Below, piece by piece: positions 15,797 through 47,334 of a DNA stretch of 64,000 nucleotides. The DNA is from an uncultured Acidobacteriota bacterium. Lineage in GTDB: Bacteria > Acidobacteriota > Thermoanaerobaculia > UBA5066 > Gp7-AA6. The stretch lies in assembly GCA_963829925.1 (NCBI GenBank), contig CAWHKQ010000015.1, positions 354,025 through 418,024 on the forward strand, in the 5' to 3' direction. The notes under the pieces were generated by a model that searched no databases, was not told where the DNA came from, and worked only from the letters and a program-made list of their open reading frames with translations. How positions within the stretch are numbered: the stretch's first letter is position 1; every line of letters begins with the position of its first letter. The translations under genes and the position numbers were made by a program.

Positions 15797-15974
15797 GAAG
15801 CGGGGCGGCCCGGGCTGATACGGATGATCTTCATCTCCTTGGCGGGCCCGATTGTAGCTTCCCCGGCTTCGTCTGCCGCCGGACGGCCGACGTTGGCCGG
15901 CGCCGGGACGCCGTTGGCCGAAAAGCGCGGAGACGAGTTCCTCGGCATTTCGTAGTTTGCGGGTGAGGGACAAC

Positions 15975-16748: not shown

Positions 16749-16808
16749 CATGCGAGATCGTCCTGACATGGGCTCGTCATTCGAGCAAGCAAGGATCCCA
16801 AGCTCCTG

Positions 16809-17871
16809 ATGCATCCCCTCCTCGCGCGCCGCGGCCGCCTGCTGCCTTATCTGGCCGCGTGCGCGCCGCTGGCGGCGATCATCACGGCGCTGCTGGCCCG
16901 GCCGGGAGGTCTCACGTTCGGGGCGGCGGTCGCGCTCGCGGTCCCCCTGACGCTGGCGTACGCGTTCATCGGGCTCTCGGCCTGGTACCCGTGCAAACAG
17001 TTTCCTCTGGGCCGTGGACGAATCCCGCAGATGGTGGCGACGTTCGTCGCCGGCGCCCTGGTCACGAGCTCCCTCTGGGCGCTGCTCGGGAGCGGGCTCG
17101 CGCGACTGCTCGGCGCCCTGCCGCAGTTCCCGAACCTTCCGACTCACTACGCGGCCCAGGTGCCGGCCCTCATTGCCACCGGCGTTCTCCTGTATTTCCT
17201 GTACGCGGCGCTGCACTACGTCCTTCTCTCCTTCGAAGCGACGCGGGAGGCGGAGAGGAGGGAAGCCGAGATGCAGATCCTCGCCCGCGAAGCCGAGCTG
17301 GCCGCGCTGAAGGCCCAGATCCAGCCGCACTTCCTCTTCAACAGTCTGAATTCCATCTCTTCGCTTGCCGGCAGCGACCCCCCGCGGGCGCAGGAGATGT
17401 GCGTGCGCCTCTCCGAGTTTCTCCGCAAGAGCCTGGCCGTGGGGGAGACCCGGAGCATCGCGATGGGCGACGAGCTGGCGCTGTCGCGCGCCTACCTTTC
17501 GGTCGAGGAGATGCGGTACGGGCCGCGTCTGGTGTTCGAGGAAGACCTCGACGAGCGGAGCGGGAGATGTCAGGTGCCTCCGCTGCTGCTTCAGCCCCTC
17601 GTCGAAAACGCCATTCGTCACGGGATCGCGACCTGCGTGGGCGGGAGGCACCGTGCGTCTGGCCGTCCGATTCGCGGGCGGCCGGTTGCGGATCCTGGTC
17701 GAGAACCCCTATGACCCGGAATCTCCCGCCCGGGCGGGAGTCGGCCTGGGTCTGGCCAACGTGCGCCAGCGGCTGGCCGCCCGCTACGGAGGCGAGGCCT
17801 TGTTCGCCGCGAAGAGGCTCAAGGACCGCTTTCTCGTCGTGATCTCGGTGCCGGCGGAGCTGCCCGCGTGA
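16809..17871 (+). CDS. LytS-type sensor histidine kinase (one frameshift near 17648)
   Basis: TM-rich N-terminus. The His_kinase (PF06580-type) motif is LKAQIQPHFLFNSLNSISSL. The ATPase part LLLQPLVENAIRHGI continues in a second frame as GGTVRLAVRFAGGRLRILVENPYDP...GVGLGLANVRQRL. Confidence 0.8.
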
Positions 17872-22666: not shown

Positions 22667-23724
22667 TCACCCTGCCCTCTCCCCTCGGGGGAGAGGGATT
22701 TCGCTTGGCGATGCGGGTTTGTTCCGCAACGCGACGACCTGGGCGACGATCGCCAGGGCGATCTCCTCGGGCGAGCGGCCGCCGAGGGGCAGGCCGATCG
22801 GGGCGTGGAGACGCGCGAGCTCCTGCCTCCGTCACACCCGCGGCGAGCAGGCGCTCGCGGCGCTTCTCGTGCGTGCGGCGGCTGCCCAGCGCTCCAACGT
22901 AGAAGGCGGGGCTGCGCAGCGCCGCCGTCAGCGCCGGATCGTCCAGCTTCGGATCGTGGGTCAGCACGGCGATGGCCGTCGAGGAGTTGGCTCGCGACGT
23001 TCCCGAGCGCGGCATCCGGCCAGTCGGACACGATCTCGTCCGCGTGCGGAAAGCGCTTCGCGTTGGCGAAGGACTCCCGCGGATCGACGACGATCGTCCG
23101 GAAGCCGAGGAGTCTTCGCTAGCGTGACGAGCGGAATGGCGACATGCACCCCGCCCACGATCACCATGCGGGGGAGGGGAGAAGCACGTCGACGAAGAGC
23201 TCGGTCTCCCCGAGCGAGACGCGGCGGCTCACGCCCTCCGCGAGGGCGGTGCGCGCCGCGGCGAGGGTGGCGTCGTCGGCGGTCCCCGCCGTGCTCCCGT
23301 CGGCGAAGAGGGCGAGCTTGTTCCCGAGGAGTGCGTCCGGTCCGCGAATGACTGTGGCGACGGCGGCGGGGCGCTCCTGAAGCAGCGCCTCCCGCACCGG
23401 GTCGAAGATGTCCTCTCCCAGCGGCTCGACGAAGACTTCGATCGTGCCGCCGCACGCCAGCCCCACGCTCCACGCGGTGTCGTCCGAAATCCCGAAGTGG
23501 AGCAGCTGCGGCACCCGGGACGCGAGCGTTTTCTGCGCGGCCTCGACCACGGCATTCTCGACGCAGCCTCCCGACACCGAGCCCGAGATGCTCCCGTCCG
23601 CGCTGACAGCCATCTTCCCGCCGGCCGCCCGGGGCGCCGAACCCCAAGTTTCGACGACTGTCGCGAGCGCGATCGGGCGGCCCTCGTCCCGCCAGCGATC
23701 GATGTCGGAAAGGATGTCGCGCAT
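22667..23724 (-). CDS. XdhC/CoxI-family accessory protein (at least 3 frame changes)
   Basis: Matches MRDILSDIDRWRDEGRPIALATVVETWGSAPRAAGGKMAVSADGSISGSVSGGCVE. Later segments in other frames read MVIVGGVHVAIPLVTLAK, AVLTHDPKLDDPALTAALRSPAFYVGALGSRRTHEKRRERL and PIGLPLGGRSPEEIALAIVAQVVALR. Confidence 0.7.
22675..22697. repeat. GC-rich hairpin repeat (CCCTCTCCCC-TCG-GGGGAGAGGG)
   Basis: A perfect 10-bp stem with a 3-nt loop. It is related to the hairpin 80 bp upstream. It lies inside the last ~10 codons of the reconstructed XdhC-like ORF. Confidence 0.8.
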
Positions 23725-23734
23725 GGCGGGACGA

Positions 23735-26028
23735 TTATGACTTCTGCAGCCGCTCGAGCTCCAGCAGGATGGGATGGTCCGCATCAGCGAGGGCGAGGAG
23801 CCTCCGGAGGTCCGCCTCGACGGCGCGTGCGTCTTCGCCGCGGCCGACTCTTCGATACAAGCGGGCGAGCTCGAATCGCGCTCTCATCCAATAGGGCCCG
23901 GAGTTGTTGTTGATGATCGCCTGAAACTTCCTCTGCGAGGCTCGCTCCAGAGCGTGGATAGCGCGGCTCGCGTCTCCCCTTTTCTCGAAGGCCGATGCGA
24001 GCGACTCCGCGCCCAGGAAGAAGCTGGGCGATTGTCGATTCCACTCCGGCGCGAGGCTGGCGCCCTCTCAGCTCGGCGATCGCAGACTCGAGGTTTCCGT
24101 GCTCGAGCGCGATCTCACCCGGAACGTGAGATTGAAGGCTATCGTCCTGTCCCTGAACTGCTTTCACGAAGCGGCGAGCCTCCGACGTCAGGCCGGCGCG
24201 GGCCTGCAGGATCGCGATCGCCTCCCACCAACCGGGTGAAGGACCCCGAGGTTGCGATCTCCGGGGAATCGCAGCTGGTTCTCGAGCGAGCGCCCGTCGC
24301 CTCGGAAGAAAGGAATCTGCGCAAGGGCGTCGTTGCGAATGATTGGATCGTAAATCTTCTTGGCCGCCCTCGAGGCTGTTTCGATGCGACCGAGCGTCAA
24401 GTTGCCCAGAACGTTTTTCACGGCGAACATTCCCTGGGGCCTCGACCCAGCGAGTCGAGCTTCGCCGCCACGCGGTCGAGTTCGGAAGCCGCCGCCTCGA
24501 CGTCTCCCTTGAGCCAGAACTGCGTGAAGGGCAGATCCATCCAGCTCGCGGCCCAGCGGTCCCGTTCCATCACCTCTGGCGTCAACAGCCCTTTGGCTCG
24601 CCGCAGGTAGGGCTCGGCGCGGGCCGGATCGCGCTTCCACACCACGAAGTTGTAGCCGGCGTGCCAGTTGAAGTTGAAGCTTCTCGGGTGGGCGTCCGCG
24701 AGGCGGGCCTCGATCTGCACGGCTTTGTCCAGATCCTGTGGCAGGTCGTAGAGACTGGTCAGGCCCCCGACCGCCCACCCGTGGTCGGGATGAAGGCTCA
24801 CGAGCGCTTCCCAGGCTGCGATCGCCCTTTCCCTGTCCCCGAGGAAATAGTAGTAACTGCCTCGGATGAAATACCGCTCGCGCTCCGTAGTCGCGTCGGA
24901 AAGACGGAATGCGGTCTCGGCGTAGGGCAGGTAGTCCTCAGGCGGGCGGCTCTGATTCTTGAGGGCGTGCGCCAGGTGAATGTAGGCCGAAGCGAAGCTG
25001 GAATCCTCGGCCACCGCCTGTCGCAGGAGCTCTTCGGCGCTCGACTGGCCGTCATGAAACTGCGCCACGCCGCCCGCCATGAGGGCGTCCGCCCGGGAGT
25101 AGAGTTGGAGCGCCCGCAGGTTGGAGGTCGTGACCTTCGCGAGATGCGCCCCATCCTGGCCGGCCGGGTGTACCTCGCCGAGCCACGACCGAACGCGGTC
25201 GGAAATGCGTCTCATAGCCGCCAGGGAACCTTCCGTTCCTGAGCTGTCCTCGCTGAAACCGGCGAGAACAGTTCCCTGCTTCGGATCGACGAGCTCGACG
25301 CTGAAGACATACTTCCGACCGAGCTTCTCGACCCGGCCGGTGAGTAGGGCGCGTATCTCTCCGTCTCTCAGGCAGACCTCGCGTGCCAGGGTCGCGTCGA
25401 GCCTGGCGTCGAGCGGTTTTCTCATCAGCCGCAGGGCGTCACTGACTCGATCGCGCGAGACCACGGCGACGTGGCGAGAGTTGGAAAGCTCTCTACCGAG
25501 CGCGTAATCGAGCGTCCCGTCGAACAGCGGCTCCCCGGTGCGGTTTTCGAAAGCCGCCACGAGAACCCAGTCCCGCGCATGGAAGGGAAGTGGCCGCACC
25601 GATCCGCTGTCGGAGCCCGAACCGTTCCGGGAGAGCAAGGCGATCAGACCCGTCGCCAGAGCCGCTGCGACAAATCCGACCGCCACCCACGTGGCTCTTC
25701 GGGGCCTGCGAGGCGGAGGAGGAGGGACAAGCTCCCGGGCCACCTCGGCCGTGACGGGCTCGGCCGGCACAACCAGCGCCTCTTCCGCGCCGTTCTGCGC
25801 TGCGAGGATCGCCCCCCGCTCCTTCCACCAAGCATCGAGCTCGGGTGCAAACGCGTACACCGTGCCGGCTTTTCCGTGAAGGTGCCGACGCACGGGCATT
25901 CCCTCTTCCGCTTCCCACCGCTGAACGCTGCGGACGCTTTTTCGCAGGTAGGAGGCAATCTCCTTCCAGGAGTCGAGCCGGCCGCCGGCAGGCGAGGCCT
26001 GCCGGGACTCGGCGGAGGGGTCGTCCAC
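23735..26028 (-). CDS. membrane-anchored one-component regulator A: N-terminal HTH, TM helix, periplasmic alpha/beta module and TPR-like region (at least 3 frame changes in the 3' third)
   Basis: The N-terminus RLDSWKEIASYLRKSVRSVQRWEAEEGMPVRRH is an excisionase/MerR-like HTH. A Pro-rich linker follows. The TM helix is WVAVGFVAAALATGLIALL. The next domain reads WVLVAAFENRTGEPLFDGTLDYALGRELS. The TPR-like remainder is colinear with regulator B through frames ending ...DADHPILLELERLQKS, with the stop at 23735-23737. Confidence 0.7.
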
Positions 26029-26247
26029 GGGCGTTTCTCGGCTCGAAGTCTATCCGTGAAGGCGAGGACGCGGGCCGAGTCGCGCCAAGGCACGCCATAC
26101 GACCGATGGCGCACCTTGACGCTTGCGGGCCGTCGCCGCGCACAGGAGGCTGCGAATGCTCACTCTCAACGAAAAGGAGGAAAGCAGCGTGTCAGCCCGA
26201 CGTGTCACGGACAACATCAACGTTTGTAAAGGATTAGGAGCCCCTCC

Positions 26248-26883
26248 ATGCACTCGAAGAGAATTCTCATCGCCTCGAGTCTGGTCTTGGCACCCGCAGC
26301 GATCGCGGTTTTCAGCGCATCGCTCTTCGCGAGGCCGCCCAAGCCGCAACCGCCGATTCCGGTGACGGCGACCTACCGCGACGATCCAGCCGACGCTCTT
26401 CGAAGCGATGGCGGCGGATCCTACGCGACCTCCCTTCCTGCGGACGGTAGCCGGCTCTTTTTCACACACAATTCCTGCTACTTCGAAACAACGGCCTTCG
26501 ACGACGGTGCTGATTGCCTCGAAGGGAATCTGGCCGATGGTTTCTCGATGTGCGGCGGGGGAGAGATCGTGGTGACTCCCCAGTTCGAGAGTTTCTTCGC
26601 GATGACCGCCGGGGAGACGCAACCCGCCGATGCGACGGCGAGGATCGTCGGAAACGACAACTTCCGGTATTTCGTCCGCTTCAAGCCGACCGACACCCTG
26701 GTTTCCGGTCCCAACTGCTCGTCGCAGGTCACGATCACGCGGATCGATGCGACCCACTGGGAGATCGAGGGCTTCGCCGACGACGTCGCTCGGGTGCTGA
26801 CCAACAAGATCCAGGGAGGCGGCGGCTACACGAACCGCGGCCATTACCTCGCGCCGTTCAAGATCAGCGTGTCTCAACCCTGA
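26248..26883 (+). CDS. small secreted protein, family P member 1
   Basis: AGGAG RBS. Signal peptide MHSKRILIASSLVLAPAAIAVFSASLFA. It carries the shared motif DALRSDGGGSY and the shared C-terminal pattern THWEIEGF...HYLAPFKISVSQP. It is divergent from regulator A. Confidence 0.65.
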   Translation: MHSKRILIASSLVLAPAAIAVFSASLFARPPKPQPPIPVTATYRDDPADALRSDGGGSYATSLPADGSRLFFTHNSCYFETTAFDDGADCLEGNLADGFSMCGGGEIVVTPQFESFFAMTAGETQPADATARIVGNDNFRYFVRFKPTDTLVSGPNCSSQVTITRIDATHWEIEGFADDVARVLTNKIQGGGGYTNRGHYLAPFKISVSQP

Positions 26884-26989
26884 CGACTCGACAATGCCGA
26901 GTTGAGAGCGGCGTGGAGCCTGGCGAGAGGGCTCTGCGTCGTCTCTCCCTCGAAGTCTTCCAAGCGGCATGGCGAAGTGAGGTGGTGTT

Positions 26990-28285
26990 ATGAAGGTCCC
27001 TTGCTTTCTCTTCGTGCTGTCCGTTCTCGTCGACGCAGCGGCCGTCGGCCAGGAATTCACGGAGTACCCAGGAGCCACGACTCCGATCCAGATCGTAGCG
27101 GGCCCCGACGGGAATCTCTGGTTCACTGAGTTCTCGAGGTTCGGAAACGCGATCGGACGAATAACTCTCGCCGGTGAAATTACGAAGTTCCATATCCCGA
27201 CCGTTCGGGCCTTGCCAGTCGGCATCACCGCGGGACCAGACGGCAACCTCTGGTTTGCCGAATCCGAAGGGAACAAGATCGGCCGCATTACGCCTTCCGG
27301 CGAGATCACCGAGTTTCCGCTTCCGGTCGCCGGGAGGTTTCCAGGAATGATCACGGCCGGCCCCGACCAGAACCTCTGGTTCACGGACGGCATGTCGGTC
27401 TGGCGGTTGACAACCGCCGGGGCTTTCACGGAGTTCCCGCTCCCCTTGCCTGCCTACGGTGGCGGGGCGATCACCACGGGTCCCGACGGGAACCTGTGGT
27501 TCGCTGGGAGCTTCGCTCAGAAAATCGGGCGAATCACGCCGGCCGGCGCTTTGACCGAATTTCCTCTCCCCGCCTTTTCGTACCCCTTCGGCATTGTCAC
27601 GGGGTCCGACGGGGCGCTGTGGTTCACGGAGTCGGGCTTTCCCGGGAAGATCGGTCGGATCACGACCTCCGGCACGATCACCGAGTTTCCGGTTCCCACG
27701 CCGCGCGGCGTCGAGTCGACCCCGAGTATCGTGGCCGGCCTCGACGGGAGTCTCTACTTCGCCGAGCCCGGCGCAAGCCAGATCGGACGCATCACGACGT
27801 CGGGCGTGATCACGGAGTTTCCGCTGCCGACTCCAGGGTATTTCGAGGGGATAGCGCTGGGCCCCGACGGCGCGATCTGGATCGCCGAGTATCAAGCGGG
27901 TCAGATCGGTCGGATGTCGACGGGCGCCCCCGTGACCTGCGACGCGGACGCCACGACGATGTGCCTGAATGCCGGCCGTTTTCGCGTCACTGCCGAGTGG
28001 AGGAAGGCCGACGGGACTACCGGCCAGGGCCAGGCCGTTCCGCTGACTTCCGACTCGGGCTACTTCTGGTTCTTCAACGCCGCGAACATCGAAGCCGTCG
28101 TCAAGGTCCTGGATGCCTGCTCCTTGAACGGTCACCACTGGGTTTTCGCTGCCGGTCTGACGAACGTGGAAGTCTCCCTTCGGGTCTTCGACACCTTCGC
28201 CGGCTCACTCAAGACCTACGTGAACCAGCTGGGCACGGCCTTTCAGCCGATCCAGGATGCCTCGGCGTTCGCGACTTGCCCGTGA
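26990..28285 (+). CDS. secreted Vgb-like (streptogramin-lyase-type) beta-propeller repeat protein with a conserved Cys-bracketed C-terminal domain
   Basis: Signal peptide MKVPCFLFVLSVLVDAAAVG. About 7 repeats of GPDGNLWFTE...IGRITP.GEITEFPLP are present. The C-terminal ~115 aa read CLNAGRFRVTAEWRK...GYFWFFNAANIEAVVKVLDAC...FQPIQDASAFATCP. Confidence 0.8.
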   Translation: MKVPCFLFVLSVLVDAAAVGQEFTEYPGATTPIQIVAGPDGNLWFTEFSRFGNAIGRITLAGEITKFHIPTVRALPVGITAGPDGNLWFAESEGNKIGRITPSGEITEFPLPVAGRFPGMITAGPDQNLWFTDGMSVWRLTTAGAFTEFPLPLPAYGGGAITTGPDGNLWFAGSFAQKIGRITPAGALTEFPLPAFSYPFGIVTGSDGALWFTESGFPGKIGRITTSGTITEFPVPTPRGVESTPSIVAGLDGSLYFAEPGASQIGRITTSGVITEFPLPTPGYFEGIALGPDGAIWIAEYQAGQIGRMSTGAPVTCDADATTMCLNAGRFRVTAEWRKADGTTGQGQAVPLTSDSGYFWFFNAANIEAVVKVLDACSLNGHHWVFAAGLTNVEVSLRVFDTFAGSLKTYVNQLGTAFQPIQDASAFATCP

Positions 28286-28373
28286 CCTGATTCGAGGCGA
28301 GCGAGTACTGGACCGAGCCCGGCGGTAGTCGACTGCGGTGGTCCGCGGTAGCGCCCGCACCTCGTGAAGAGTC

Positions 28374-30708
28374 TCAGGTGTTCCGCAGCCGGTGGAGCTC
28401 CAGGAGGATCGGATGGTCGGCGTCGGCGAGGGCGAGCAGCTTCGAGAGCTCCGCTTCGACGGCCTGCGCGTCTTCGACGCGGCCGACACCTCGATACAGT
28501 TTGGCAAGCTCCAGCCGGTTTCTCAGCCAGTAGGCGCCCGTGTTGCCGCTGATCACCGCATCGCGTCTCTCCGGGTGCCGCTCGAGGACTTCGATGGCTA
28601 TCGGCGCATCTCCGCTTTTCGCGAGGGCCGCCGCCAGGGATTCAGAGCCGAGATAGAAGCCGGGGCGCTTCGGGCCCGCGCGATCGTCGAGCGCCATGGC
28701 TTTCTCGAGCTCGGAGATCGCCCCCGCGAGGTCTCCCCCCGCGAGCGCGATTTCCCCCGGCACCCTGTGGAGTTCCGGCAGGCCCTCCGTCTCTTCTTTC
28801 AGGCTCGCTGCAAGGAAGAGCCGCGCCTCCGACGTTAAGCCTGCCCGGGCCTGAAGAATGCTTGTTGTCTCCCAATAAACAAGCAGGAAAGCCCCGGGAG
28901 TCTCCCTCGTCAGCCCTGCAGTTCGTTCCGGTTCCTCGCTGATGCGCAAGAGGCGTGAAAGGGCGGGGGCGTCTCCTCTGACGAAGGCGATTTGCGCGAG
29001 CACGTCGTTACGAATCACGGGATCGGCGATCTTCGCGGAGGTTCGGGCGGCCGCCTCGATCCGGCCGAGCGTCAGGTAACCGAGAGCGGTCGCGAGGGCA
29101 AGGCGTTCTCTGGCGCGCCCTCCGAGAGAGTCGACCTTCCCGGCGACCCTGTCGATCTCACTCGCCGCCGTCACGAGTTCTCCCTTCAGCCAGTATTCGG
29201 TGAACGGCAAGAGGTCCAGCCAGGTGACCATGTTCGGAGCGCGGTCGGTGACCTCGGGCGTGATCAGCTCCGTGGCCCGGCGCACGTACGGTGCGGCTCG
29301 AGCCGGCTCGTCGATCCGAACGACAAAGTTGAAAGCGGCGTTCCAATTCGCACCGAAGCTGGTTGCGCGCGAGTCCGCGTACCGAGCCTCCAGTTGCACG
29401 GCCTTCTTCAGATCCTGCTCCAGGTCCCGCCACTTGTAGAGGGCGGCCAGGTTCCCCACGGCCCAGTAGTGGTCGGGGTGGAGACCGACGAGGGCCTCGT
29501 AGGCGGCGATGGCCTTTTCGCGTTCGCCGAGGAGGTGGTAGTAGCTCCCTCGGATGAAGTACCGCTCGCGCTCGGCCGTCGTTTCGGCGAGGCTCAGAGC
29601 CTTTTTGGCGAAGGGCTCGAAGTCCTCGACAGGCCTCGCCTGATTGGCAACCGTCCATGCCAGGTGGATCCAGGCCGACGCGAACTTGGGGTCCTCGGCG
29701 ACTGCCTGCTGTAAGAGCTCTTCCGCTGCCGCCTGGTTGTTGTCCCGCGCCATCAGCAGGTCTGCCTGGGAATAGAGCTGCAAGGCTCTTAGATTGGCAG
29801 TCGTGACCTTCGCGAGCCCGGCTCGTTCAGGATCGCCGGACGGGGGCTTCTTTTCACCAAGCGCTGACCGAACGCGATCCGAGATACGTCGCATAGCCGA
29901 GAGCGAACCGTCCATTCCGGGGCTTTCCTCGCTCAACCCGGCCAGCGTGGTGCTCTGCTTCGGGTCCACGATCTCGACGCTGAAAAGGTACTTCGGGCCG
30001 AGCTTCTCGACGCGTCCGGTAATCAGGGCCCGGATCTCTCCATCCCTCACGCAGACTTCCCGCGCCAGCGGCGCATCAAGGGGAGCGTCGAGTGGCTTCC
30101 TCATCAGCCGCAGCGCGTCCTCGACTCGTTCCCGGGAGACCACGTTGACGTGCCGCGAGTTGGAGAGCTCTCGTCCGAGCGCGTAATCGAGCGTTCCATC
30201 GAAGAGCTTCTCTCCGGTTCGGTTCTCGAAACCCGCGACTAGGACCCAATCCCGAGCCTCGAAGGGGAGCGTTCCCGCGGCTGGACCCGAACCGTTGCGC
30301 GACAGCCAAGCGACGATACCCGCGGCCAGCACCGCCGCCGCGAAGCCTGCCGCCACCCTCAGGGCCCGTCGGGGTTTGGGAAGGGAAGGGGCGAGCACCG
30401 GTGTCGGCGCGGCCGTCGGAGCCACCACGTCCACGGATTCGGGCGCTGGAGCCTCCGCCTCTAAGGCGCCGTTTTGCTCCGCGAGAACCGCGCCCCGCTC
30501 CTTCCACCAGGCGTCGAGCTCCGATGTGAAGGCGTAGACCGTGCCGCGCTTCTCGTGCTGGTGCCGGTGGACCGGGCAGCCCCTCTTCCGCCTCCCAGCG
30601 CTGCACGCTGCGCACGCTTTTCCGCAGGTAGGAGGCGATCTCCTTCCAGGAGTCGAGCCGGCTCCCGGCAGGGGAGGCCTGCCGGGGCTCGGCGGAGGGG
30701 TTGTCCAC
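28374..30708 (-). CDS. membrane-anchored one-component regulator B (paralog of A; one frameshift near 30567)
   Basis: MDNPSAEPRQASPAGSRLDSWKEIASYLRKSVRSVQRWEAEEGLP is in one frame. VHRHQHEKRGTVYAFTSELDAWWKERG..., the TM helix, WVLVAGFENRTGEKLFDGTLDYALGRELS and the long TPR-like region are in the next. B carries 1 extra nt relative to A at the join. Confidence 0.75.
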
Positions 30709-30910
30709 GGCTTTCTCTCGACTTCAGTCTATCTCCGTGCCGTCTCGCCCTGCGGATCATCTGAGTACGCCAAGACACGCCATCCGTGCCCTGGCGCCTC
30801 ATGACGCTTGCCGGGGCTCCGCGATCACGCGTATGTGGAACTCGAATGATTTTCGACATCCCTCCGGGATTCACCCGGCGGAATCTCGAGAAAGAAACGA
30901 GGAAGAGGCG

Positions 30911-31582
30911 ATGAACAGGAACCTCATGAGATCCGCGATCGGGTTCGGTGCCGTGATCGTTCTCCTTGGCTGGGCGTCCTCGGCGACTGCTTTGCCGAAA
31001 CCCCCGTGCCTCCGCCGAGCCACGACCACGCCGTGGCGGTCACTGTCTCGAACAACGTCGGTGACTCGATTCTGGGCGATGGCGGCGTCTATACCGACGG
31101 TGTCGACGGTGTGGGAGCCAGGATTTGGGACTTCGGTCCCCCTCCTGCTACCGATCATCTCCATTTTCAGGTCGGCACCAGCCGGCCCCTGAGCCTCGTG
31201 ATCGCGGATCAGCCCGGCCTCCCCGCTGGCGGGGTGAACGTGCAGTGTCGGGCGAGCCGGCTCAAGCCCAATGAGAGCCCGATCGGCTTTCAGTTCTACA
31301 ACGACCCCAACTTTCCTGTCGGCGATAGCACGAGCGGGCCCGAGAACTATGGAGGCACCTTCAAGTGCACTACGGACAATCCTGGGAAGATCGGCTGGTT
31401 CGTTCACTGGAATCCTTCGGATGAGTGCATCGTCGTCTCGCATCCAGCGGCCTCCACCTACACCTTCACCGCAGGAGCCGGCTGTGCAGCCGATGTGTCC
31501 CGGATCGTCAACGGTACCGTCCAGGCACCCTCTGGGGGCGTACGACGTTCCGTTCCAGGTCATCGCCGTTGAGCTTCCGTAA
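30911..31582 (+). CDS. small secreted protein, family P member 2 (2 frameshifts)
   Basis: Signal peptide MNRNLMRSAIGFGAVIVLLGWASSATA. The first shift is in CCCCC at 31001-31005. Then comes VGDSILGDGGVYTDG. The second shift is at ~31530. The end is YDVPFQVIAVELP. It is divergent from regulator B. Confidence 0.55.
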
Positions 31583-31680
31583 CGAAGTTGTGGCTGTGTC
31601 GAGAGTCGCGGCGTGGAGCAGTTCTGCTTGGGCTGCTCCACCCCGCCCGTACGACGTGTGAGCAAACACTGGAGGCGGAC

Positions 31681-32892
31681 ATGGAGACTGCAAGGCTTCT
31701 CAGAACGATCGTCCTAACGTCGGTCTTCGCATCCGTCTTTGCGATGACCGAGGTCGAGGCTCAGATCCCGGGCCTCATTCACCACTACCCGGGCGACGTC
31801 GACGGAAGCGACATGGCGGGGACGAACCCGGGCACCTTCGAGAACGGCGCGACGGCGGGGACTCCGGGGAAAGTGAGAGGCGCCTTCTCTTTCGACGGGA
31901 TCGACGACGGGGTGAACCTCGGAAACGTCCCGGACCTCGACTACACGGCAACGAGCTCTTTCACCTGGGAAGCATGGGTCAACAGCTTCGGACCGGGCGC
32001 GCAGCCGTTCCAGTTCATCATCAATACCAACTACGACTGCACTCTTTCAACCCACGCGTCCCAAGTTCTGTGGATCGACTCTTTCTCCCCCCTCGGTAAG
32101 GTGCATTTTCGCGTTTGCGACGGGCCGAATTGCGTGCTGCTGGACTCTCCATCGCTGATTGCCTTCAACGTGTGGAATCACATCGTCGTGGTTCGCGACG
32201 TCACGCCGTCAGGGAAACTGCTCAAGATCTATGTCAACTGCGCGCTGGTGGCAATCGCCGAGGACACGACGACTGGATCGCTCACGTCTCCGGGCGATGA
32301 CTTCATCGGAAGGCGGTTTGTCTGCCCGACAACGGGCAACTTCAACGGGCTGATCGACGAGGTGCGCTTCTACGATCGGGCCCTCGCCGACGAGGAAGTC
32401 GCGCAGGGCTACTGCAATGGCGACGCCGACGGCGATGGTATCGGGGACGGCAACGACAACTGTCCTATCACCTCGAATTCTAACCAGACGGACGTCGACG
32501 GCGACGGCGTCGGCGATGCCTGTGACGGTGATGATGACAACGATGGGGTCCTGGACGAAGGCGACAACTGTCCCATGATCGCGAACTCGGCCCAGGGGGA
32601 CCTCGACGGAGACGGCATCGGCGATGCCTGTGACGGTGACGATGACAACGATGGGGTTTCGGACGCAGTTGACGGCTGCCCCGGCACTCCCCCGGGCGGG
32701 GTGGTCAACTCCGACGGTTGCACGATCGCAGCCCTATGTCCGTGTGAGAACTCCTGGAAATCCCATGGCGCCTACGTCTCCTGTGTCAGCCGTACGGCCG
32801 AGACCTTCGTTGATGCCGGGTTGATCACGGAAGTGCAGAAAGGTGCCATCGTCTCCGAGGCGGCGCTGTCAGACTGCGGTAGCAAGAATTAA
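31681..32892 (+). CDS. secreted LamG-domain protein with thrombospondin type-3 (calcium-binding) repeats
   Basis: Signal peptide METARLLRTIVLTSVFASVFAMTEVEA. The LamG/Laminin_G_3-like region reads AFSFDGIDDGVNLG...FTWEAWV...WNHIVVVRD...IDEVRFYDRAL. It has 5 repeats of the DxDxDGxGDxCD/DNC type. The Cys-rich end is CPCENSWKSHGAYVSCV. Confidence 0.8.
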   Translation: METARLLRTIVLTSVFASVFAMTEVEAQIPGLIHHYPGDVDGSDMAGTNPGTFENGATAGTPGKVRGAFSFDGIDDGVNLGNVPDLDYTATSSFTWEAWVNSFGPGAQPFQFIINTNYDCTLSTHASQVLWIDSFSPLGKVHFRVCDGPNCVLLDSPSLIAFNVWNHIVVVRDVTPSGKLLKIYVNCALVAIAEDTTTGSLTSPGDDFIGRRFVCPTTGNFNGLIDEVRFYDRALADEEVAQGYCNGDADGDGIGDGNDNCPITSNSNQTDVDGDGVGDACDGDDDNDGVLDEGDNCPMIANSAQGDLDGDGIGDACDGDDDNDGVSDAVDGCPGTPPGGVVNSDGCTIAALCPCENSWKSHGAYVSCVSRTAETFVDAGLITEVQKGAIVSEAALSDCGSKN

Positions 32893-32928
32893 GACCCGAA
32901 GGAACTGAGAAAAAAAGAGAAAAAAGCG

Positions 32929-33200
32929 ATGAACAAGATTCTCATGAGAAGGGCGATCCGGCTCGGGGCCCTGATCGTTCTGGTGGGCCGGGCGTCCTTG
33001 GCGCCCGCGGCGCCAAGATCAGCCAGCGTCCCCCATCCGTGTGACGTAGCGGTCGCCGACCGACCGGGCGACTCGATCCTGAGTGATGGTGGGGGAAATC
33101 TACACGGATGGTGCCGAGCTCAGGCAAGACCTACGTGAACCCGCTCGGCACGGTGTTCCAGCCGATCCAGGACACGTCGGCGGTTGAAACATGTCCATGA
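32929..33200 (+). pseudogene. chimeric remnant: the 5' ~60 codons of a family-P gene joined to the last ~25 codons of a Vgb-type C-terminal domain
   Basis: MNKILMRRAIRLGALIVLVGRASLA...GDSILSDGGG(I)YTDG aligns with P2. From ~33108 the DNA aligns with 28197-28285. KTYVNPLGTVFQPIQDTSAVETCP* corresponds to KTYVNQLGTAFQPIQDASAFATCP*. Two frame changes are needed. Confidence 0.5.
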
Positions 33201-33256
33201 CCGAAGAGCCATGCACGCCTCGCGCCGGCTGAGAACTGGGGTGGGAGTGGAGGGGA

Positions 33257-33904
33257 ATGTTACGTAAAGTCTGGTTCGCGCTGTCGAACGCAGCTCGTTC
33301 CGGCGCGAGACCGCCGCCTGAGAACTCGACGACAGCGAGCCTCGACCTAGCTCCGAGCGAGCCTGCGGGCGCCGGCCTGATGGAGGTCACGGGGATCTAC
33401 CAGGACGGAAAGGGCACTTACCTGCCGGGTGACTCGGTGGAGTTCTTCCAGAGCGACCTGCGGATCACACCGCTCTGCTCGGCCAATCGCTCGCTCAACG
33501 CCCTGCTGCCCGCAGCGGCGCTGGCACGGTTGACGGGACTCATGGAGACCTGCCGCGGAAAGGGAGCTCTCCTGAAGATCCCCGCACTGCTGAACGCCCA
33601 GACAGGAGTCGTCGGCGAGCCGTCGCTGCCGCCCGACTATCCCAAGGGCGCCAGCGTCTTCTATTACTTCTTCGTGGACTCGAATGGCGACGGCAGGGTC
33701 TCGCCAGATAACGACGCGTACGCGCTCGTCTGGCAGAACGGGATCCATTTGACGCGCATCGAACACGCTGACCGGACGGTCTATGAGCTCACGACGGACC
33801 TCACCTCGACCGACGCCGAGCTGATTCGCGAAACCGAGGCGGGCGGCGTGAGCGAGGGTGTTTTCTTCGTGCCCCTCCGGCTGACTGCAACCCGGTTGAA
33901 GTGA
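33257..33904 (+). CDS. family-P-like protein lacking a recognisable signal peptide (possibly 5'-truncated)
   Basis: GIYQDGKGTY matches the G(V/I)YTDG position of P2 and the remnant. The C-terminal pattern TVYELTTD...AELIRE...GVFFVPLRLTATRLK matches the ends of P1 and P2. The true start is unclear; there is an ATG near 33380. Confidence 0.45.
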   Translation: MLRKVWFALSNAARSGARPPPENSTTASLDLAPSEPAGAGLMEVTGIYQDGKGTYLPGDSVEFFQSDLRITPLCSANRSLNALLPAAALARLTGLMETCRGKGALLKIPALLNAQTGVVGEPSLPPDYPKGASVFYYFFVDSNGDGRVSPDNDAYALVWQNGIHLTRIEHADRTVYELTTDLTSTDAELIRETEAGGVSEGVFFVPLRLTATRLK

Positions 33905-34054: not shown

Positions 34055-36984
34055 ATGCGTCGTCGTCCTGGGTCTAGCCGTCTCGCTGCTGACGGTCGGA
34101 GCCGGGGCCGCCCAGACGACCGGAGGCATTGCCGGCAAGGTCGTCAATTCCGAAGGCGCAGGCCCTTCCGGGCGCGGCCGTCGAAGTCTCGAGCCCGAGA
34201 CTCCAGGGGACCCGGAACGCCGAGACGTCAAGCGACGGGACGTACCGGATACCGTTTCTGCCGCCGGGGCCGTATCGAGTTCGCGCCACCGTTCCGGGAT
34301 TCGCCGGGGCGGAGCGATCCGCGACGGTGACCCTCGATGCCACGGCAACGGTGGACCTGGCCCTGCGGATTCTCGCTGAAGAGCAAGTCCTCGTCTCGGG
34401 ACGCCCGCCGCACCTGGACTCGACGGCGACGACCACGGGCACGAGCTACACCTACGACGTCATCAAACACCTTCCCGTGGCGCGGAACTACGCCCAGGTC
34501 GTGGAGGCGAATCCCTGCGTCTTCTCGGACCGGGGCGTGACGCAAGGGCGATCCCTGGCTCTCTCGATCTACGGCGCCACTTCCGCCGAGAACCAGTGGG
34601 TCATCGACGGCATCAACACCACGAATGTCCTCCTCGGGATCCAGGGCAAGGCACTCAACAACGAGTTCGTCCAGGAAGTTCAGGTCATGACGGGCGGCTA
34701 TCAGGCGGAGTATGGCGGGGCGCTCGGGGGCGTGATCAACGTGGTCACGAAGGCGGGGAAACGTGTTCCACGGTGATGCGTTCGCCTACTACGACTCGGG
34801 CTCGCTGAGCGCGGAGAGGACATTCGTCGCCGAAGGGGACTCGCCGCTCACCGGGATGCGCCTCGCCGAGTACCAGCGCATCGATTTCGGCGTTGGTCTC
34901 GGAGGGTTCATCGTCAAAGACCGGCTGTGGTTCTTCGGCGCCTACAACCGCGTGGAGTTTCCGCAAAGGTCTCGCGTTACGTCGCCACCGAGCTGGTGGA
35001 TGAGACGATGGAGTTTCCGTTGAACGGAGTGGAGAATCTCTACACCGGCAAGCTGACTTGGAACGTCGCCCCGGGGTCCACACTCATCGCGGCGGTCCTG
35101 GCCGACCCGGTGACGAATTCGGGGGCGGGGCTCGCCGATCCGCGGCAGGGAGGAGGGGTCGGCGCCCAGGACATCACGAACCCCGACCCCTCGACGTGGG
35201 AGTCGAAGAGATCCGGAGGCGGCACCGACTTTGGCGTACGCTGGAATCAGGTCTTCGGCGCCACCGCTCTGGCGACGCTCCAGATCGCGCGGCACCAGGA
35301 CCGCTACCAGCTGGAGGCGACGGGGTCGGCGTCCGAACCGCGTCTCGAGGATTTCACCTGTGAAGGAGGCAGACGCCAACTGCCATGCGAGATACCGCCG
35401 GTCCCCCGCTTCGCCACAGGCGGGTTCGGCCGGCTGGGCGGCGCCCACAACAACAGCTCCTCCTACCGCAACCAGCTGCGGGCCGACACGGTCGTCTACC
35501 GGGGAGTGCATGAGATCGGAGTGGGCGGCGCGTACCAGAGCGCCCGGACCAACGTGGAAGTGTTCTTCACCGGGGGCCAGGTGATCAGCCGTTACAACGA
35601 ATACGGACAGGAGTACTACGAGCACCGCTTCTACACGGGGAATCCCGACGATCCCTCTGCCGACGATCGAAGAGCACGCGCCAGCACGCGGGAACTCGGT
35701 TTCTACGTGCAGGACTCGTGGCGCGCGGCCCCCGGCCTGACGATCAACGCGGGGCTGCGGTGGGACGGAGAAGACGTCCAGAGATTCGATGACGAGACCG
35801 TCCTCCGAACGGAGCAGTGGCAGCCGCGTCTCGGGGTCGTGTGGGATCCCTGGCGGGATGGAGCGACGAAGATCTACGCTTTTGCGGGTCGGCTCGCCTA
35901 CGCGCTGCCGACCGACCTGGCCGCGCGAGCCTGGCTCGACTTCGTCACGGTGACGACCTACAACTTCGACCCGGTCGGTATCGCGCAGGCCGAGAATGTC
36001 TTCGGGCACGAGACGAATTTCGTGTACGGTCAGGGTTTCGGAACCATTGTGGACGGGGACCTGGACCCGTTCGTTCAAGACGAGCTCTCCATCGGCATCG
36101 AGAGGCTGCTCAATCCGTCATTGACTCTCGGCCTGAAGGCGAGCTATCGCCGTCTTTCGAGCGCGATCGAGGACCGCTGCGACCTGGACTACAACGCGCC
36201 GGAGAACAACGGGTCCTTCTGCGCCATCACGAACCCGGGCTCACAGAATCCGTACGCGCGCGGCGACTTCCCCTCCTGCGACCGGCTCGATGCGTACGAC
36301 AGCTGCGCCGACGGCATCCCGACGTACCCGGCGCCACGGATGCCCGAGATCAGCCGCATCTACCGGGGAATCGAGCTGCTCGCGCGGAAGTCGCTCTCGG
36401 ACGGGCTCTGGCTCCAGGCGTCCTTCGTATTCTCCTCGCTCCGCGGCAACTACGACGGGATGGTCTCCGAGAGCGGTCAGACGGACCCGGGGATCAACTC
36501 CGACTTCGATTACCCGGCCATGTATCCGAACAGCTACGGGCGTCTCTTCCTCGACCGGCCGTACAGCCTCCGGTTCGACGGCTTCTATGCGACGCCCCTT
36601 CGCCTCTCGATCGGGCTCCAGGCGTGGCTCCGCTCGGGAGCGCCGCTCAACCAGTACGGGTATTACAACTGGGGCTACGGAGCCACTCGGCTCGTGCCCC
36701 GGGGTTCCGCGGGCCGACTCCCGATGGAGTGGGACGCCAACCTGACGCTCGAATACCCGATCGTCGTCGGCCCGGTGACCGTGACCTTGCAGGGCTACCT
36801 GTACAACGTGTTCAACAATCAGATCGAGACAGGCCGGGACCAGGTCTGGTCCAATCAGCCTCCGGCGGACTATCCCGACTCGCTCTACGATCCGAACCAG
36901 CCTCAAAGCAATCCCTACTATGGACTGACCACCGCACGGCGGGAGCCGAGACTCTTTCGCGCTGCGCTCCGGGTCTCGTTCTGA
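34055..36984 (+). CDS. TonB-dependent receptor with an N-terminal carboxypeptidase-regulatory-like domain (about 4 frame changes in the first kb)
   Basis: Leader MRRR..LGLAVSLLTVGAGAAQT. The CarboxypepD_reg-like part reads GIAGKVVNSEG...AVEVSSPRLQGTRNAETSSDGTYRIPFLPPGPYRVRATVPGF. The plug reads ENQWVIDGINTTN...VQVMTGGYQAEYGGALGGVINVVTK. A long barrel ends in ...FRAALRVSF with a terminal Phe. Confidence 0.8.
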
Positions 36985-44045: not shown

Positions 44046-44251
44046 GTCTGTTCCTCTCTTGCCTCGTCCCGACTGGCGGGATCTCGGCGTTTAAACCCCC
44101 CACGCTGCGGGCTTTCCCGGTCGGGCCGGGGTCCCGTCGTACACCAAACCGCGTGGCCTCGGTGCCGTAGTTGCAGGTTTCATGCCGCCTTCCGGGCGGG
44201 CCTTGGGAATCCTGCGGGGAACGGCTATCCTCTGGACGGAGGTAGCGCTCG

Positions 44252-45946
<1,695 letters not shown>

Positions 45947-45947
<1 letters not shown>

Positions 45948-47281: not shown

Positions 47282-47334
47282 GTCTCCCGTCCCCGCCGAT
47301 TCGCCGATTTTCCGCTTCCCATAAGGAGGAGCTC

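What the first reader, a model, noticed from the sequence alone, without database searches (positions are those of the whole stretch)
23735..33904. Repeated cassettes: membrane-anchored HTH-TM-sensor-TPR regulator divergent from a small secreted protein and a variable large secreted protein
Two full cassettes sit head to tail.

- Cassette 1: regulator A (23735-26028, minus), P1 (26248-26883, plus) and a Vgb-like propeller (26990-28285, plus).
- Cassette 2: regulator B (28374-30708, minus), P2 (30911-31582, plus) and a LamG/TSP3 protein (31681-32892, plus).
- Debris of a third follows at 32929-33904.

The two regulators are colinear over ~780 aa. Each has a cytoplasmic excisionase/MerR-like HTH (LDSWKEIASYLRKSVRSVQRWEAEEG), a Pro-rich linker, one TM helix, a periplasmic alpha/beta module and a long TPR-like region. 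This is the topology of a ToxR/CadC-style one-component membrane transcription factor. By eye they are nearly identical in the HTH and proximal sensor and much more diverged in the distal TPR part.

The divergent partner genes encode a family of ~210-aa signal-peptide proteins. I cannot place this family. It is defined by the motifs D(S/A)(I/L)L.DGGG.Y and a C-terminal ...PF.(I/V).V... pattern. The third gene of each cassette is a structurally unrelated secreted binding-type protein.

A conserved regulator with swappable secreted cargo, plus cassette decay, suggests a modular and diversifying sense-and-secrete system. I do not recognise it as a described one. The region also looks more AT-rich than its flanks by eye.
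Basis: partly seen in the sequence, partly recalled or inferred. Interest (0 to 1): 0.78.

Follow-up and report, generated by a model that had tools for sequence, protein, structure and literature searches.

The report
Membrane-anchored regulator with secreted-protein operon
Two neighbouring copies of an uncharacterised acidobacterial gene cassette pair a membrane-spanning DNA-binding sensor with a divergent operon for small secreted proteins, a secreted propeller or lectin-like protein and an outer-membrane transporter; the pairing recurs in other genomes but is a new variant of a known kind of regulator, not a new principle.

Summary
Two paralogous regulators lie divergent from small signal-peptide proteins (P1, P2), each followed by a larger secreted protein.

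The regulators have an N-terminal MerR/excisionase-type winged HTH, one TM helix, and a periplasmic alpha/beta module plus TPR. The HTH rests on an AlphaFold model and Foldseek hits, since no Pfam model passes its cut-off.

P1 and P2 are distant homologues in an unannotated superfamily of about 448 clusters at 50% identity. It has no Pfam, NCBIfam or PDB relative.

The pairing recurs in related Acidobacteriota loci. An imperfect palindrome is conserved in the intergenic region.

Corrections to the finding:
- RegA, RegB, P2 and the TonB receptor carry frameshifts. These are probably assembly indels, because a methylmalonyl-CoA mutase gene elsewhere in the window is split the same way.
- The "debris" is a P-like 5' fragment joined to a propeller 3' tail. 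ORF 33257-33904 is a conserved gene.
- The operon runs on into a TonB-dependent receptor.
- P-family genes also sit beside Ser/Thr kinases and CadC-type regulators.

Best reading: a transmembrane one-component regulator controlling an envelope uptake or binding operon. This is a new variant of a known kind, of moderate interest.

The parts
23735..26028 (-). Regulator A, about 763 aa when reconstructed: winged HTH, linker, one TM, periplasmic alpha/beta module and TPR. It has three frame changes, near 24430, 24247 and 24069.
   Evidence: Three-frame translation. HMM mapping of the HTH, sensor and C-terminal TPR segments in three frames. DNA alignment to the intact orthologue L083 shows -1, -1 and -2 nt indels. 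Identity to intact P0018 is 79-86% in all segments.
25804..25980 (-). MerR/excisionase-type winged HTH of regulator A (residues about 17-75).
   Evidence: AlphaFold2 pLDDT 74 with topology beta-alpha1-alpha2-beta hairpin-alpha3. Foldseek top hits are RdfS excisionase, RacA, Pukovnik Xis, BldC and CarH. Pfam gives only sub-threshold HTH_23, Phage_Nu1 and HTH_17.
25627..25698 (-). Single transmembrane segment of regulator A (residues 111-134), preceded by RRPRR.
   Evidence: Kyte-Doolittle scan shows a single window above 1.6.
26082..26125 (.). Conserved imperfect palindrome in the RegA/P1 intergenic region (CAAGGCACGCCAT-N7-ATGGCGCACCTTG), followed by GACGCTTG. Candidate operator.
   Evidence: Inverted repeat of 17-nt arms, 82% complementary. 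The 35-nt motif occurs only twice in the window, with 0 expected. The equivalent palindrome is present in L083, L097, L001, L002, L004, L003, L005, L008, L012, L045 and L029.
26248..26883 (+). P1, an intact 211-aa signal-peptide protein of the P superfamily.
   Evidence: ORF. Sixteen homologues at 60-88% identity. No Pfam or NCBIfam hit. Superfamily profile hits.
26990..28285 (+). Secreted Vgb-lyase-family beta-propeller with a C-terminal domain of about 110 aa, 431 aa in all, intact.
   Evidence: Pfam Vgb_lyase 1e-106. NCBIfam VgbA scores 246 bits, below its 600-bit cut-off. A propeller follows the P gene in L001, L002, L004, L008, L010, L012, L083 and L097.
28374..30708 (-). Regulator B, about 777 aa when reconstructed, a paralogue of A. 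It has one frame change just after the HTH, near 30575.
   Evidence: an extra base in a CCCGG context. Intact orthologue P0026/L097 is 79-91% identical.
30776..30810 (.). Second copy of the conserved intergenic motif (RegB/P2).
   Evidence: The same sequence is in L097.
30911..31582 (+). P2, 223 aa when reconstructed, P superfamily. It has two frame changes, near 31000 and 31528, both in C runs.
   Evidence: It is 82.5% identical to the intact L097 orthologue.
31681..32892 (+). Secreted LamG (Laminin_G_3) plus thrombospondin type-3 repeat protein, 403 aa, intact.
   Evidence: Pfam. An orthologue lies in L083 downstream of a Q-type gene.
32929..33135 (+). N-terminal 69-aa fragment of a P2-like gene (signal peptide plus DSILSDGGG), then a stop.
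   Evidence: BLASTP gives 51% identity to the P2 N-terminus.
33087..33200 (+). The 3' tail of a Vgb-type propeller gene in another frame (...TYVNPLGTVFQPIQDTSAVETCP*). It is the remnant of the propeller that sits between P2 and Q in L097.
   Evidence: compared with the C-terminus of 26990-28285.
33257..33904 (+). Q-type small protein, 215 aa, intact. It is a distant P-superfamily member with a weak or absent signal peptide.
   Evidence: 74-77% identical orthologues in L002 and L097, and a homologue in L004 (Q-family HMM E 3e-102), all with the same MLRKVW-type N-terminus. Independent superfamily HMM gives E 1e-5 for Q-type relatives. The hhalign link is only weak.
34129..36984 (+). TonB-dependent outer-membrane receptor (CarboxypepD_reg, Plug, barrel) with two frame changes, near 34760 and 34960. 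It is the last gene of the P2 operon.
   Evidence: Pfam. The same receptor lies next to the cassette in L001, L002, L004, L006, L007, L083 and L097.

Best explanation
Each cassette encodes a single-pass transmembrane one-component transcription regulator.

**How it is built.** A cytoplasmic MerR/excisionase-type winged HTH is tethered by a Pro-rich linker and one TM helix. Outside the membrane sits a periplasmic alpha/beta module followed by about 450 aa of TPR repeats.

**How it most likely works (inferred).**
- The periplasmic part senses an envelope or imported ligand.
- The HTH, probably as a dimer, binds the conserved imperfect palindrome in the divergent intergenic region.
- That binding controls its own gene and the divergent operon.

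**What the operon encodes.** It encodes exported proteins: a P-superfamily small protein, then a Vgb-family beta-propeller or a LamG/TSP3 protein. In cassette 2 a Q-type small protein and a TonB-dependent receptor with a SusC-like N-terminus follow. I read this as an outer-membrane binding and uptake module.

**Origin.** The two cassettes are paralogues made from a small set of recombining modules.

**Shown:** domain architecture, topology, homology, conserved synteny and the conserved palindrome.
**Inferred:** DNA binding at that site, the direction of regulation, the ligand, and the role of P and Q.
For: - **HTH fold.** The AlphaFold model and the Foldseek hits are all MerR/Xis-type DNA binders.
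- **Topology.** There is one TM segment with basic residues on its N-terminal side.
- **Periplasmic part.** It has TPR hits and a partial match to the sensor part of TIGR04510.
- **Divergent P/Q gene.** One lies next to every close HTH-type relative that has upstream sequence and whose locus I read: L001-L005, L008, L010, L012, L045, L083 and L097. L074 is the exception. More distant relatives L020, L029, L030 and L075 have one too.
- **Intergenic palindrome.** It keeps its position across these loci. Its sequence changes between clades while the symmetry is kept.
- **Operon partners recur.** The propeller and the TonB-dependent receptor turn up repeatedly.
- **Distant relatives.** Those lacking a P gene still mostly face a secreted-protein gene or sit beside a TonB receptor.
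- **No defence signal.** PADLOC finds no defence-system signature.
Against: - No Pfam DNA-binding model reaches its cut-off. Foldseek E-values are weak (0.02-0.2) because the domain is short.
- No sigma-70-type promoter was found. The palindrome does not sit in the MerR-style position between -35 and -10.
- Taken one locus at a time, the palindrome is only marginally significant.
- P genes are also adjacent to Ser/Thr kinases, which cannot bind DNA. Adjacency therefore does not prove direct transcriptional control.
- The genes in this window are frameshifted as assembled, so function in this organism is not assured.
- The P1 structure model failed (pLDDT 46), so P has no inferred biochemical role.
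Confidence: 0.5

Rival explanations
1. P and Q proteins are not merely regulated cargo. They are dedicated extracytoplasmic partners (co-sensor, ligand-presenting protein or signal) of the membrane signalling protein. This would be analogous in logic to ToxR/ToxS or VtrA/VtrC co-component systems. The conserved extreme C-terminus or N-terminal motif of P would be read by the periplasmic TPR or propeller domain.
For: - P-superfamily genes sit next to sensor-TPR proteins whatever the cytoplasmic output domain: HTH, CadC-type winged helix or Ser/Thr kinase. Orientations vary: divergent, downstream on the same strand, or convergent.
- In 12 metagenome loci selected through a P gene alone, 9 carry a Ser/Thr kinase, a CadC-type domain or this HTH close by. 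Seven of these are directly divergent from the P gene. In two the CadC-type domain lies about 2 kb upstream on the same strand. Two of the three loci without one have under 0.5 kb of sequence upstream of the P gene.
- Kinases cannot regulate the P promoter directly.
- TPR domains typically bind peptides or proteins (established knowledge).
- The co-component concept is described in PMC9214523 (title and abstract only were read).
Against: - Known co-component partners are co-transcribed downstream of the regulator, not divergent from it.
- Some P-adjacent kinases carry a PD40 propeller instead of the sensor-TPR module. No single periplasmic domain therefore tracks with P.
- There is no structural or co-evolution evidence, and the P1 model failed.
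- About half of the more distant HTH regulators have no P gene.
Confidence: 0.25
2. In this genome the region is a decaying, non-functional paralogue cluster. The frameshifts in RegA, RegB, P2 and the TonB receptor, and the truncated third cassette, would be real pseudogenisation.
For: - There are at least eight frame changes in about 13 kb. My rough, untallied impression is that this is denser than in the rest of the window.
- One clear internal deletion fuses a P-like 5' end to a propeller 3' tail.
- GC is lower than in the flanks.
Against: - A methylmalonyl-CoA mutase gene at 44246-45947 is split by a frameshift exactly at Pfam profile position 313/314. A Band_7 gene also appears to change frame by codon-position GC, though its second piece has no Pfam match. 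Indels therefore occur window-wide.
- Of the six 1- or 2-nt indels, four lie in G or C runs of 2-6 nt, and all six are small. This is typical of long-read assembly errors.
- The shifted segments have no internal stops. They stay 79-86% identical to intact orthologues, the same as the unshifted parts.
- Many sister MAGs are long-contig assemblies that I take to be long-read. Split domain hits in some of them look like similar frame changes.
Confidence: 0.15
3. The adjacency has no functional meaning. Abundant paralogous TPR 'regulators' and secreted proteins would simply be common in Acidobacteriota and lie together by chance, or the N-terminal domain would not be a DNA binder.
For: - The regulator family is large and multi-copy, with more than 579 hits and 2-3 copies on single contigs.
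- The HTH is not recognised by Pfam.
Against: - The P superfamily is rare: 448 of 1.84 billion cluster representatives. Yet about 30 of the 80 loci fetched through the sensor module carry a P or Q gene.
- The pairing is kept across regulators of 40-80% identity, together with a conserved intergenic motif.
- The structural matches are specific to one HTH class.
Confidence: 0.05

Closest known systems
Transmembrane transcription regulators (TTRs; ToxR, CadC, TcpP and similar), as surveyed in PMC10269533
   Same: A single protein with a cytoplasmic N-terminal DNA-binding domain, one TM helix and an extracytoplasmic sensor domain. It probably binds near its own divergent promoter while anchored in the membrane. 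Acidobacteria are noted in that survey as somewhat TTR-rich.
   Different: The DNA-binding domain is a MerR/Xis-type winged HTH, not the OmpR-type Trans_reg_C of ToxR and CadC. It passes no Pfam model, so a Pfam-based census like that survey's would, by my inference, miss it. The sensor is an alpha/beta module plus a long TPR array. No member has been studied experimentally.
CadC-type (Trans_reg_C) and Ser/Thr-kinase proteins of Acidobacteriota that carry the same periplasmic alpha/beta plus TPR module; NCBIfam TIGR04510 'putative peptide modification system cyclase'
   Same: The periplasmic module is homologous: 1e-50 to positions 206-530 of TIGR04510. P0107 pairs it with Pkinase and P0110 and P0131 pair it with Trans_reg_C. 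Loci L006-L073 show the same. One such kinase lies in this window at 12860-16846.
   Different: The output domain is swapped for the MerR/Xis-like HTH. The TIGR04510 score (172-183 bits) is far below its 400-bit cut-off, and the cyclase domain is absent.
MerR-family regulators and excisionase/BldC/RacA-type small DNA binders
   Same: The fold of the first 75 residues is the same: two-helix HTH, beta-hairpin wing and a third helix.
   Different: There is no coiled-coil dimerisation helix or effector domain as in MerR. There is no integrase or att context as for Xis. The domain is fused to a membrane anchor. No operator was seen within a long -35/-10 spacer.
Bacteroidota polysaccharide-utilisation loci and TonB-dependent cell-surface signalling (SusC-like transporter with accessory surface proteins and a membrane-spanning sensor/regulator)
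   Same: The gene set is similar. It has a TonB-dependent receptor with a CarboxypepD_reg N-terminal extension, Plug and barrel. It has several exported binding or enzyme-like proteins and an adjacent membrane-spanning regulator.
   Different: No SusD homologue, glycoside hydrolase, ECF sigma/anti-sigma pair or hybrid two-component system was seen. The accessory proteins (P, Q, Vgb-family propeller, LamG/TSP3) are different families. The substrate is unknown.
Co-component systems ToxR/ToxS and VtrA/VtrC (PMC9214523)
   Same: A transmembrane regulator is paired with a small exported partner protein whose family evolves fast and is hard to detect by sequence.
   Different: The partner there is co-transcribed downstream and forms a periplasmic heterodimer. 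Here the small protein gene is usually divergent, and no interaction has been shown.

Membership tests
Transmembrane one-component transcription regulator (TTR) | Predicted DNA-binding domain | tested here: met
   AlphaFold model with pLDDT 74. Foldseek probability is 0.96-1.0 to RdfS, RacA, Xis, BldC and CarH. Pfam DNA-binding models are all below cut-off.
Transmembrane one-component transcription regulator (TTR) | At least one transmembrane segment separating the DNA-binding domain from a sensor domain | tested here: met
   Single hydrophobic window at residues 111-134, preceded by RRPRR, in RegA, RegB and their intact orthologues.
Transmembrane one-component transcription regulator (TTR) | Binds DNA and regulates transcription from the membrane | not testable with these tools
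   Support is indirect only: the divergent arrangement and the conserved intergenic palindrome.
ToxR/CadC family proper | OmpR-type winged helix (Pfam Trans_reg_C, PF00486) | tested here: not met
   No PF00486 hit in RegA or RegB. The fold class is MerR/Xis. Paralogous proteins with the same sensor do carry Trans_reg_C.
MerR family | N-terminal winged HTH followed by a coiled-coil dimerisation helix and a C-terminal effector-binding region | tested here: not met
   An HTH-like fold is present. It is followed by a Pro-rich linker and a TM helix. No Pfam MerR hit appears among the listed matches.
MerR family | Palindromic operator inside a 19-20 bp -35/-10 spacer | tested here: inconclusive
   The palindrome lies upstream of, or overlaps, a TTGAC-like element. 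No sigma-70 promoter was detected, and acidobacterial promoters are not covered by that scan.
Excisionase (Xis / HTH_17) | Small stand-alone protein next to an integrase, acting at att sites | tested here: not met
   Here the domain is the N-terminus of a protein of about 770 aa. HTH_17 scores E 0.07, below cut-off. No integrase is among the called and Pfam-annotated neighbours in related loci. The window's own flanking ORFs were not domain-scanned.
NCBIfam TIGR04510 (putative peptide modification system cyclase) | Full-length match at or above 400 bits, including the N-terminal cyclase domain | tested here: not met
   172-183 bits, covering only profile positions 206-530 of 814.
Streptogramin B lyase Vgb (for 26990-28285) | Match to NCBIfam VgbA/VgbB at the curated cut-off (600 bits) | tested here: not met
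   246 and 212 bits. The protein does belong to the broad Pfam Vgb_lyase propeller family, at 356 bits against a cut-off of 50.
P superfamily (defined here) | Length about 200-260 aa, signal peptide, N-terminal D.I.SDG.G.Y motif and C-terminal G.Y..PF...V motif | tested here: met
   P1 and reconstructed P2 align over their full length. An HMM built from the library-search hits gives E 2e-36 for P1 and 2e-22 for P2. hhalign gives 86-98%. Membership of the Q-type (33257-33904) is weaker: HMM hits to Q-type relatives at about E 1e-5, and hhalign matches only the C-terminus.
Anti-phage defence systems (PADLOC) | Any component matching a defence-system model | tested here: not met
   The only hit is a marginal HTH match to mad1, E 9e-4.
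Co-component signalling (ToxRS / VtrAC type) | Small periplasmic partner co-transcribed downstream of the regulator and forming a complex with its periplasmic domain | tested here: inconclusive
   A partner-like small exported protein is conserved but usually divergent. It lies downstream on the same strand in L056 and L081. Interaction is not testable here.

The most novel reading that the evidence does not exclude
The P/Q superfamily could be a dedicated class of exported partner proteins for a broad set of acidobacterial single-pass signalling proteins. Those proteins carry a MerR-like HTH, a CadC-type winged helix or a Ser/Thr kinase as output. The small protein would be captured by the periplasmic TPR or propeller domain and would report on envelope or TonB-dependent uptake status. 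This would be a previously unrecognised 'co-component' signalling architecture. It would be interchangeable between transcriptional and phospho-signalling outputs.
Probability: 0.2. Interest if true: 0.7.

Novelty: new variant of a known kind. Interest (0 to 1): 0.45.

Why it matters
- **Missed regulators.** Acidobacteriota are abundant in soils and sediments but poorly characterised. These regulators carry a DNA-binding domain that current Pfam models miss, so I infer that Pfam-based censuses of transmembrane regulators overlook them.
- **An unannotated partner family.** The P superfamily is not in Pfam or NCBIfam. It has about 450 clusters at 50% identity.
- **A testable unit.** The pairing with a TonB-dependent receptor and secreted propeller or LamG proteins outlines a recurrent envelope sensing and uptake unit. 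This unit has a concrete candidate operator. It could help explain how these bacteria detect and acquire substrates.
- **A domain-swap case.** One periplasmic sensor module is combined with three different outputs (HTH, CadC-type helix, kinase), all near P genes. That makes it a natural system for studying domain swapping in signal transduction.

Tried and rejected
- **Structure of P1.** AlphaFold2 with a 14-sequence alignment gave pLDDT 46. That is too poor for a fold search, so I ran none.
- **Third homologue search.** Searching with the 25-sequence P alignment returned only 19 proteins, presumably because low-complexity words filled the candidate list. The exhaustive representative search replaced it.
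- **PDB sequence searches.** Regulator profile searches found only TPR proteins. P-family profiles found nothing, or spurious nanobody CDR2-like matches at E above 0.05.
- **Metagenome locus scans.** A narrower subfamily alignment worked.
- **Promoter and terminator scan.** It was uninformative: 0 promoters and 3 terminator-like sites against 8.5 expected.
- **Palindrome as an RNA hairpin.** I considered this. Mismatches would be G-U wobbles on the minus strand in cassette A, but not in the L012-type sequence (my reading). I therefore prefer a protein-binding site. No covariance model was built.
- **Defence island or mobile element.** No PADLOC hits, and no integrase among the called, Pfam-annotated neighbours in related loci.
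- **P0017 contig look-up.** The look-up failed, so the source assembly and its sequencing technology remain unidentified.

Full report
**1. What is in the sequence**

The window has about 70% GC. From 24 to 40 kb the GC drops to about 64-65%.

Intact genes:
- P1 (26248-26883);
- a 431-aa protein with a Pfam Vgb_lyase propeller, 1e-106 (26990-28285);
- a 403-aa Laminin_G_3 plus TSP_3 protein (31681-32892).

The regulators and P2 are not single ORFs:
- RegA changes frame three times in its last 700 nt.
- RegB changes frame once, directly after the HTH.
- P2 changes frame twice.
- The TonB-dependent receptor at 34129-36984 is also split into three frames.
- The public record of this 496-kb contig likewise carries only the truncated 536-aa and 686-aa products.

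**2. Are the frameshifts real?**

I aligned the genes to intact orthologues from other assemblies.
- The P2 shifts are single-base differences in C runs.
- The RegB shift is an extra base in CCCGG.
- The RegA shifts are -1, -1 (in a G run) and -2 nt.

The shifted segments contain no internal stops. They remain 79-86% identical to intact orthologues, the same as the unshifted parts.

A methylmalonyl-CoA mutase gene at 44246-45947 is also split between two frames, exactly at Pfam profile position 313/314. A Band_7 gene appears to behave similarly on codon-position GC, though its second piece has no Pfam match.

I conclude that window-wide assembly indels are the likelier cause, but I cannot prove it. 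The one clear structural lesion is at 32929-33200. There a 69-aa P2-like N-terminus is followed, in another frame, by the last roughly 25 codons of a propeller gene.

**3. The regulators**

Reconstructed RegA (763 aa) and RegB (777 aa) are colinear. Their identity by segment is:

| Segment | Identity |
|---|---|
| HTH | 85% |
| Linker and TM | 53% |
| Proximal alpha/beta module | 80% |
| N-terminal TPR part | 62% |
| C-terminal TPR part | 56% |

Each has a single hydrophobic segment (residues 111-134) after an Arg/Lys cluster.

Pfam recognises only TPRs. The isolated N-terminus gives sub-threshold hits to HTH_23, Phage_Nu1 and HTH_17.

An AlphaFold2 model of residues 1-76, built with 32 homologues, has pLDDT 74. 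Its topology is beta, helix, helix, beta-hairpin, helix.

Foldseek against the PDB returns these as top hits:
- RdfS excisionase;
- RacA-DNA;
- mycobacteriophage Xis;
- BldC-DNA;
- CarH.

Their probability is 0.96-1.0, their E-values 0.02-0.2 and their TM-scores 0.5-0.7. The domain is a MerR/excisionase-type winged HTH.

The periplasmic part matches positions 206-530 of NCBIfam TIGR04510 at 1e-50. That is far below the family cut-off, and the cyclase domain is missing.

**4. The family and its relatives**

RegA has more than 579 relatives, mostly named 'TPR repeat protein', from Thermoanaerobaculia and other Acidobacteriota. Several can occur on one contig.

The same periplasmic module is also joined to other cytoplasmic domains:
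- Ser/Thr kinase domains;
- OmpR/CadC-type winged helices.

One such kinase, of 1329 aa, lies in this window at 12860-16846.

**5. The small proteins**

P1 has only 16 close homologues, all of them unnamed or labelled only 'hypothetical protein'. P1 and P2 are not similar by BLAST, but profile methods connect them:
- hhalign without signal peptides gives 86% directly, and 97-98% through intermediate subfamilies.
- A profile search of 1.84 billion cluster representatives finds 448 members at E up to 1e-3.
- An HMM built from those library hits, nearly all of them new sequences, re-finds P1 (2e-36), P2 (2e-22) and the neighbours in other loci.

The hallmarks of the superfamily are:
- a signal peptide;
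- ...VT.TFRD..GD.I.SDG.G.Y.DGVDGV... near the mature N-terminus;
- ...G.Y.MPF..TV... at the extreme C-terminus.

No Pfam, NCBIfam or PDB relative exists. The AlphaFold model of P1 was too poor to use.

It has 74-77% orthologues in L002 and L097 and a homologue in L004. All share an odd, weakly hydrophobic N-terminus. Its link to the P superfamily is weak.

**6. Synteny**

From the regulator side:
- Every close HTH-type relative that has upstream sequence and whose locus I read has a divergent, adjacent P or Q gene. These are L001-L005, L008, L010, L012, L045, L083 and L097. L074 is the exception.
- Several distant relatives have one too: L020, L029, L030 and L075.
- About half of the more distant HTH regulators lack a P gene. 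Most of those face another secreted-protein gene or a TonB receptor.

Intact orthologous loci clarify the window:

| Locus | Orthologue of | Gene order |
|---|---|---|
| L083 | RegA | propeller <- P1 <- \| -> Reg -> XdhC. Further along the contig: TonB -> Q -> LamG/TSP3 -> propeller |
| L097 | RegB | TonB <- Q <- propeller (611 aa) <- P2 <- \| -> Reg -> XdhC |

Compared with L097, the window's cassette 2 reads P2, LamG/TSP3, then the P-like fragment plus propeller tail, then Q, then TonB receptor. Most of the propeller has been replaced.

The 'swappable cargo' is therefore drawn from a few recurring modules: propeller, LamG/TSP3 and a propeller-Q fusion in L008 and L010.

From the P side:
- I fetched 12 metagenome loci through a different P subfamily.
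- Nine carry a Ser/Thr kinase, a CadC-type domain or this HTH close by. Seven of these are directly divergent from the P gene. In two the CadC-type domain lies about 2 kb upstream on the same strand.
- Two of the three without one have under 0.5 kb of sequence upstream of the P gene.

**7. Intergenic motif**

Both intergenic regions share a 35-nt motif that is found nowhere else in the window, with 0 expected. In cassette A it is an inverted repeat with 17-nt arms.

Equivalent imperfect palindromes lie at the same relative position in related loci. Examples are GCCAAGAG.GGCC-N10-GGCC.CTCTTGCC and CAAGGCACGCCAT-N7-ATGGCGCACCTTG. The half-sites change together between clades. In any single locus the palindrome is only marginally significant. 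The argument rests on its recurrence. It is a plausible operator for a dimeric HTH.

**8. Interpretation**

- **Best explanation (0.5).** A transmembrane one-component regulator controls a divergent operon for exported proteins and a TonB-dependent receptor. I read the operon as an envelope binding and uptake module.
- **Main rival (0.25).** P and Q are extracytoplasmic partners of the signalling protein rather than mere targets. The reason is that they also accompany kinases, which cannot bind DNA. The two readings are compatible.
- **Real pseudogenisation (0.15).**
- **Meaningless adjacency (0.05).**

**9. Comparison with what is known, and novelty**

By architecture the protein belongs to the general class of transmembrane transcription regulators (PMC10269533). 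It fails the defining features of several named families:
- ToxR/CadC: there is no Trans_reg_C domain.
- MerR: there is no coiled coil or effector domain.
- Xis.
- TIGR04510.

Its DNA-binding domain escapes Pfam, so I infer it would be missed by the Pfam-based census in that paper. No PADLOC defence signature was found.

I rate it a new variant of a known kind, paired with an undescribed small-protein superfamily. Interest is moderate (0.45). Three things limit it: there is no functional evidence, the P structure failed, and the assembly quality here is low.

Noticed in passing
window 44246-45947 (+): A methylmalonyl-CoA mutase gene is split by a frameshift near 45312. Pfam profile positions 2-313 are in one frame and 314-511 in another. 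This points to assembly indels across the window.
   Followed up: partly
window 12860-16846 (-): A 1329-aa Ser/Thr kinase has a C-terminal part that carries the same periplasmic sensor module plus TPR as the regulators (sensor HMM hit at 13763-14641). It is convergent with large Big_3_5 and BNR-like secreted proteins at 8495-12858.
   Followed up: partly
window 47323-48178 (+): A Band_7/SPFH gene appears to change frame near 47840. Pfam matches positions 2-129 of 176 in the first piece only.
   Followed up: no
window 23161-23784 (-); L083 12360-12941; L097 6811-7821: An XdhC/CoxI-like gene lies immediately downstream of the regulator in the window and in both orthologous loci. This is conserved synteny with no obvious link to the cassette.
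   Followed up: no
L008 3440-5167 (-); L010 3445-5283 (-): A Vgb-family propeller and a Q-type domain are fused in one ORF of about 550 aa. This links the small Q protein physically to the propeller.
   Followed up: partly
L086 2323-5175 (-): A P-superfamily gene lies divergent from a 951-aa Ser/Thr kinase whose extracytoplasmic part looks like a PD40/TolB-type propeller by its repeated SPDGR motifs (no domain search was run), not the sensor-TPR module.
   Followed up: partly
L015 5064-5858 (-); L048 4779-5651 (-): More distant HTH regulators face secreted proteins of about 270-290 aa. These have Cys-rich DCDD...DNDCDG repeats. The L015 protein ends in ...VTITVTRTR, which resembles the P/Q C-terminus. 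They may be a further divergent branch.
   Followed up: no
window 50001-51000: This is the lowest-GC kilobase of the window, at 59.5% against about 70%.
   Followed up: no
L083 5664-7079; L002 9024-9233: Toxin-antitoxin genes (Unstab_antitox, PhdYeFM/PIN) lie next to the cassette in two related loci.
   Followed up: no
P superfamily N-terminal motif (e.g. window 26390-26440): The D.I.SDG.G.Y.D.V.G motif draws weak, non-significant hits to the nanobody CDR2/FR3 region (E 0.05-0.8). I treat this as coincidence.
   Followed up: yes
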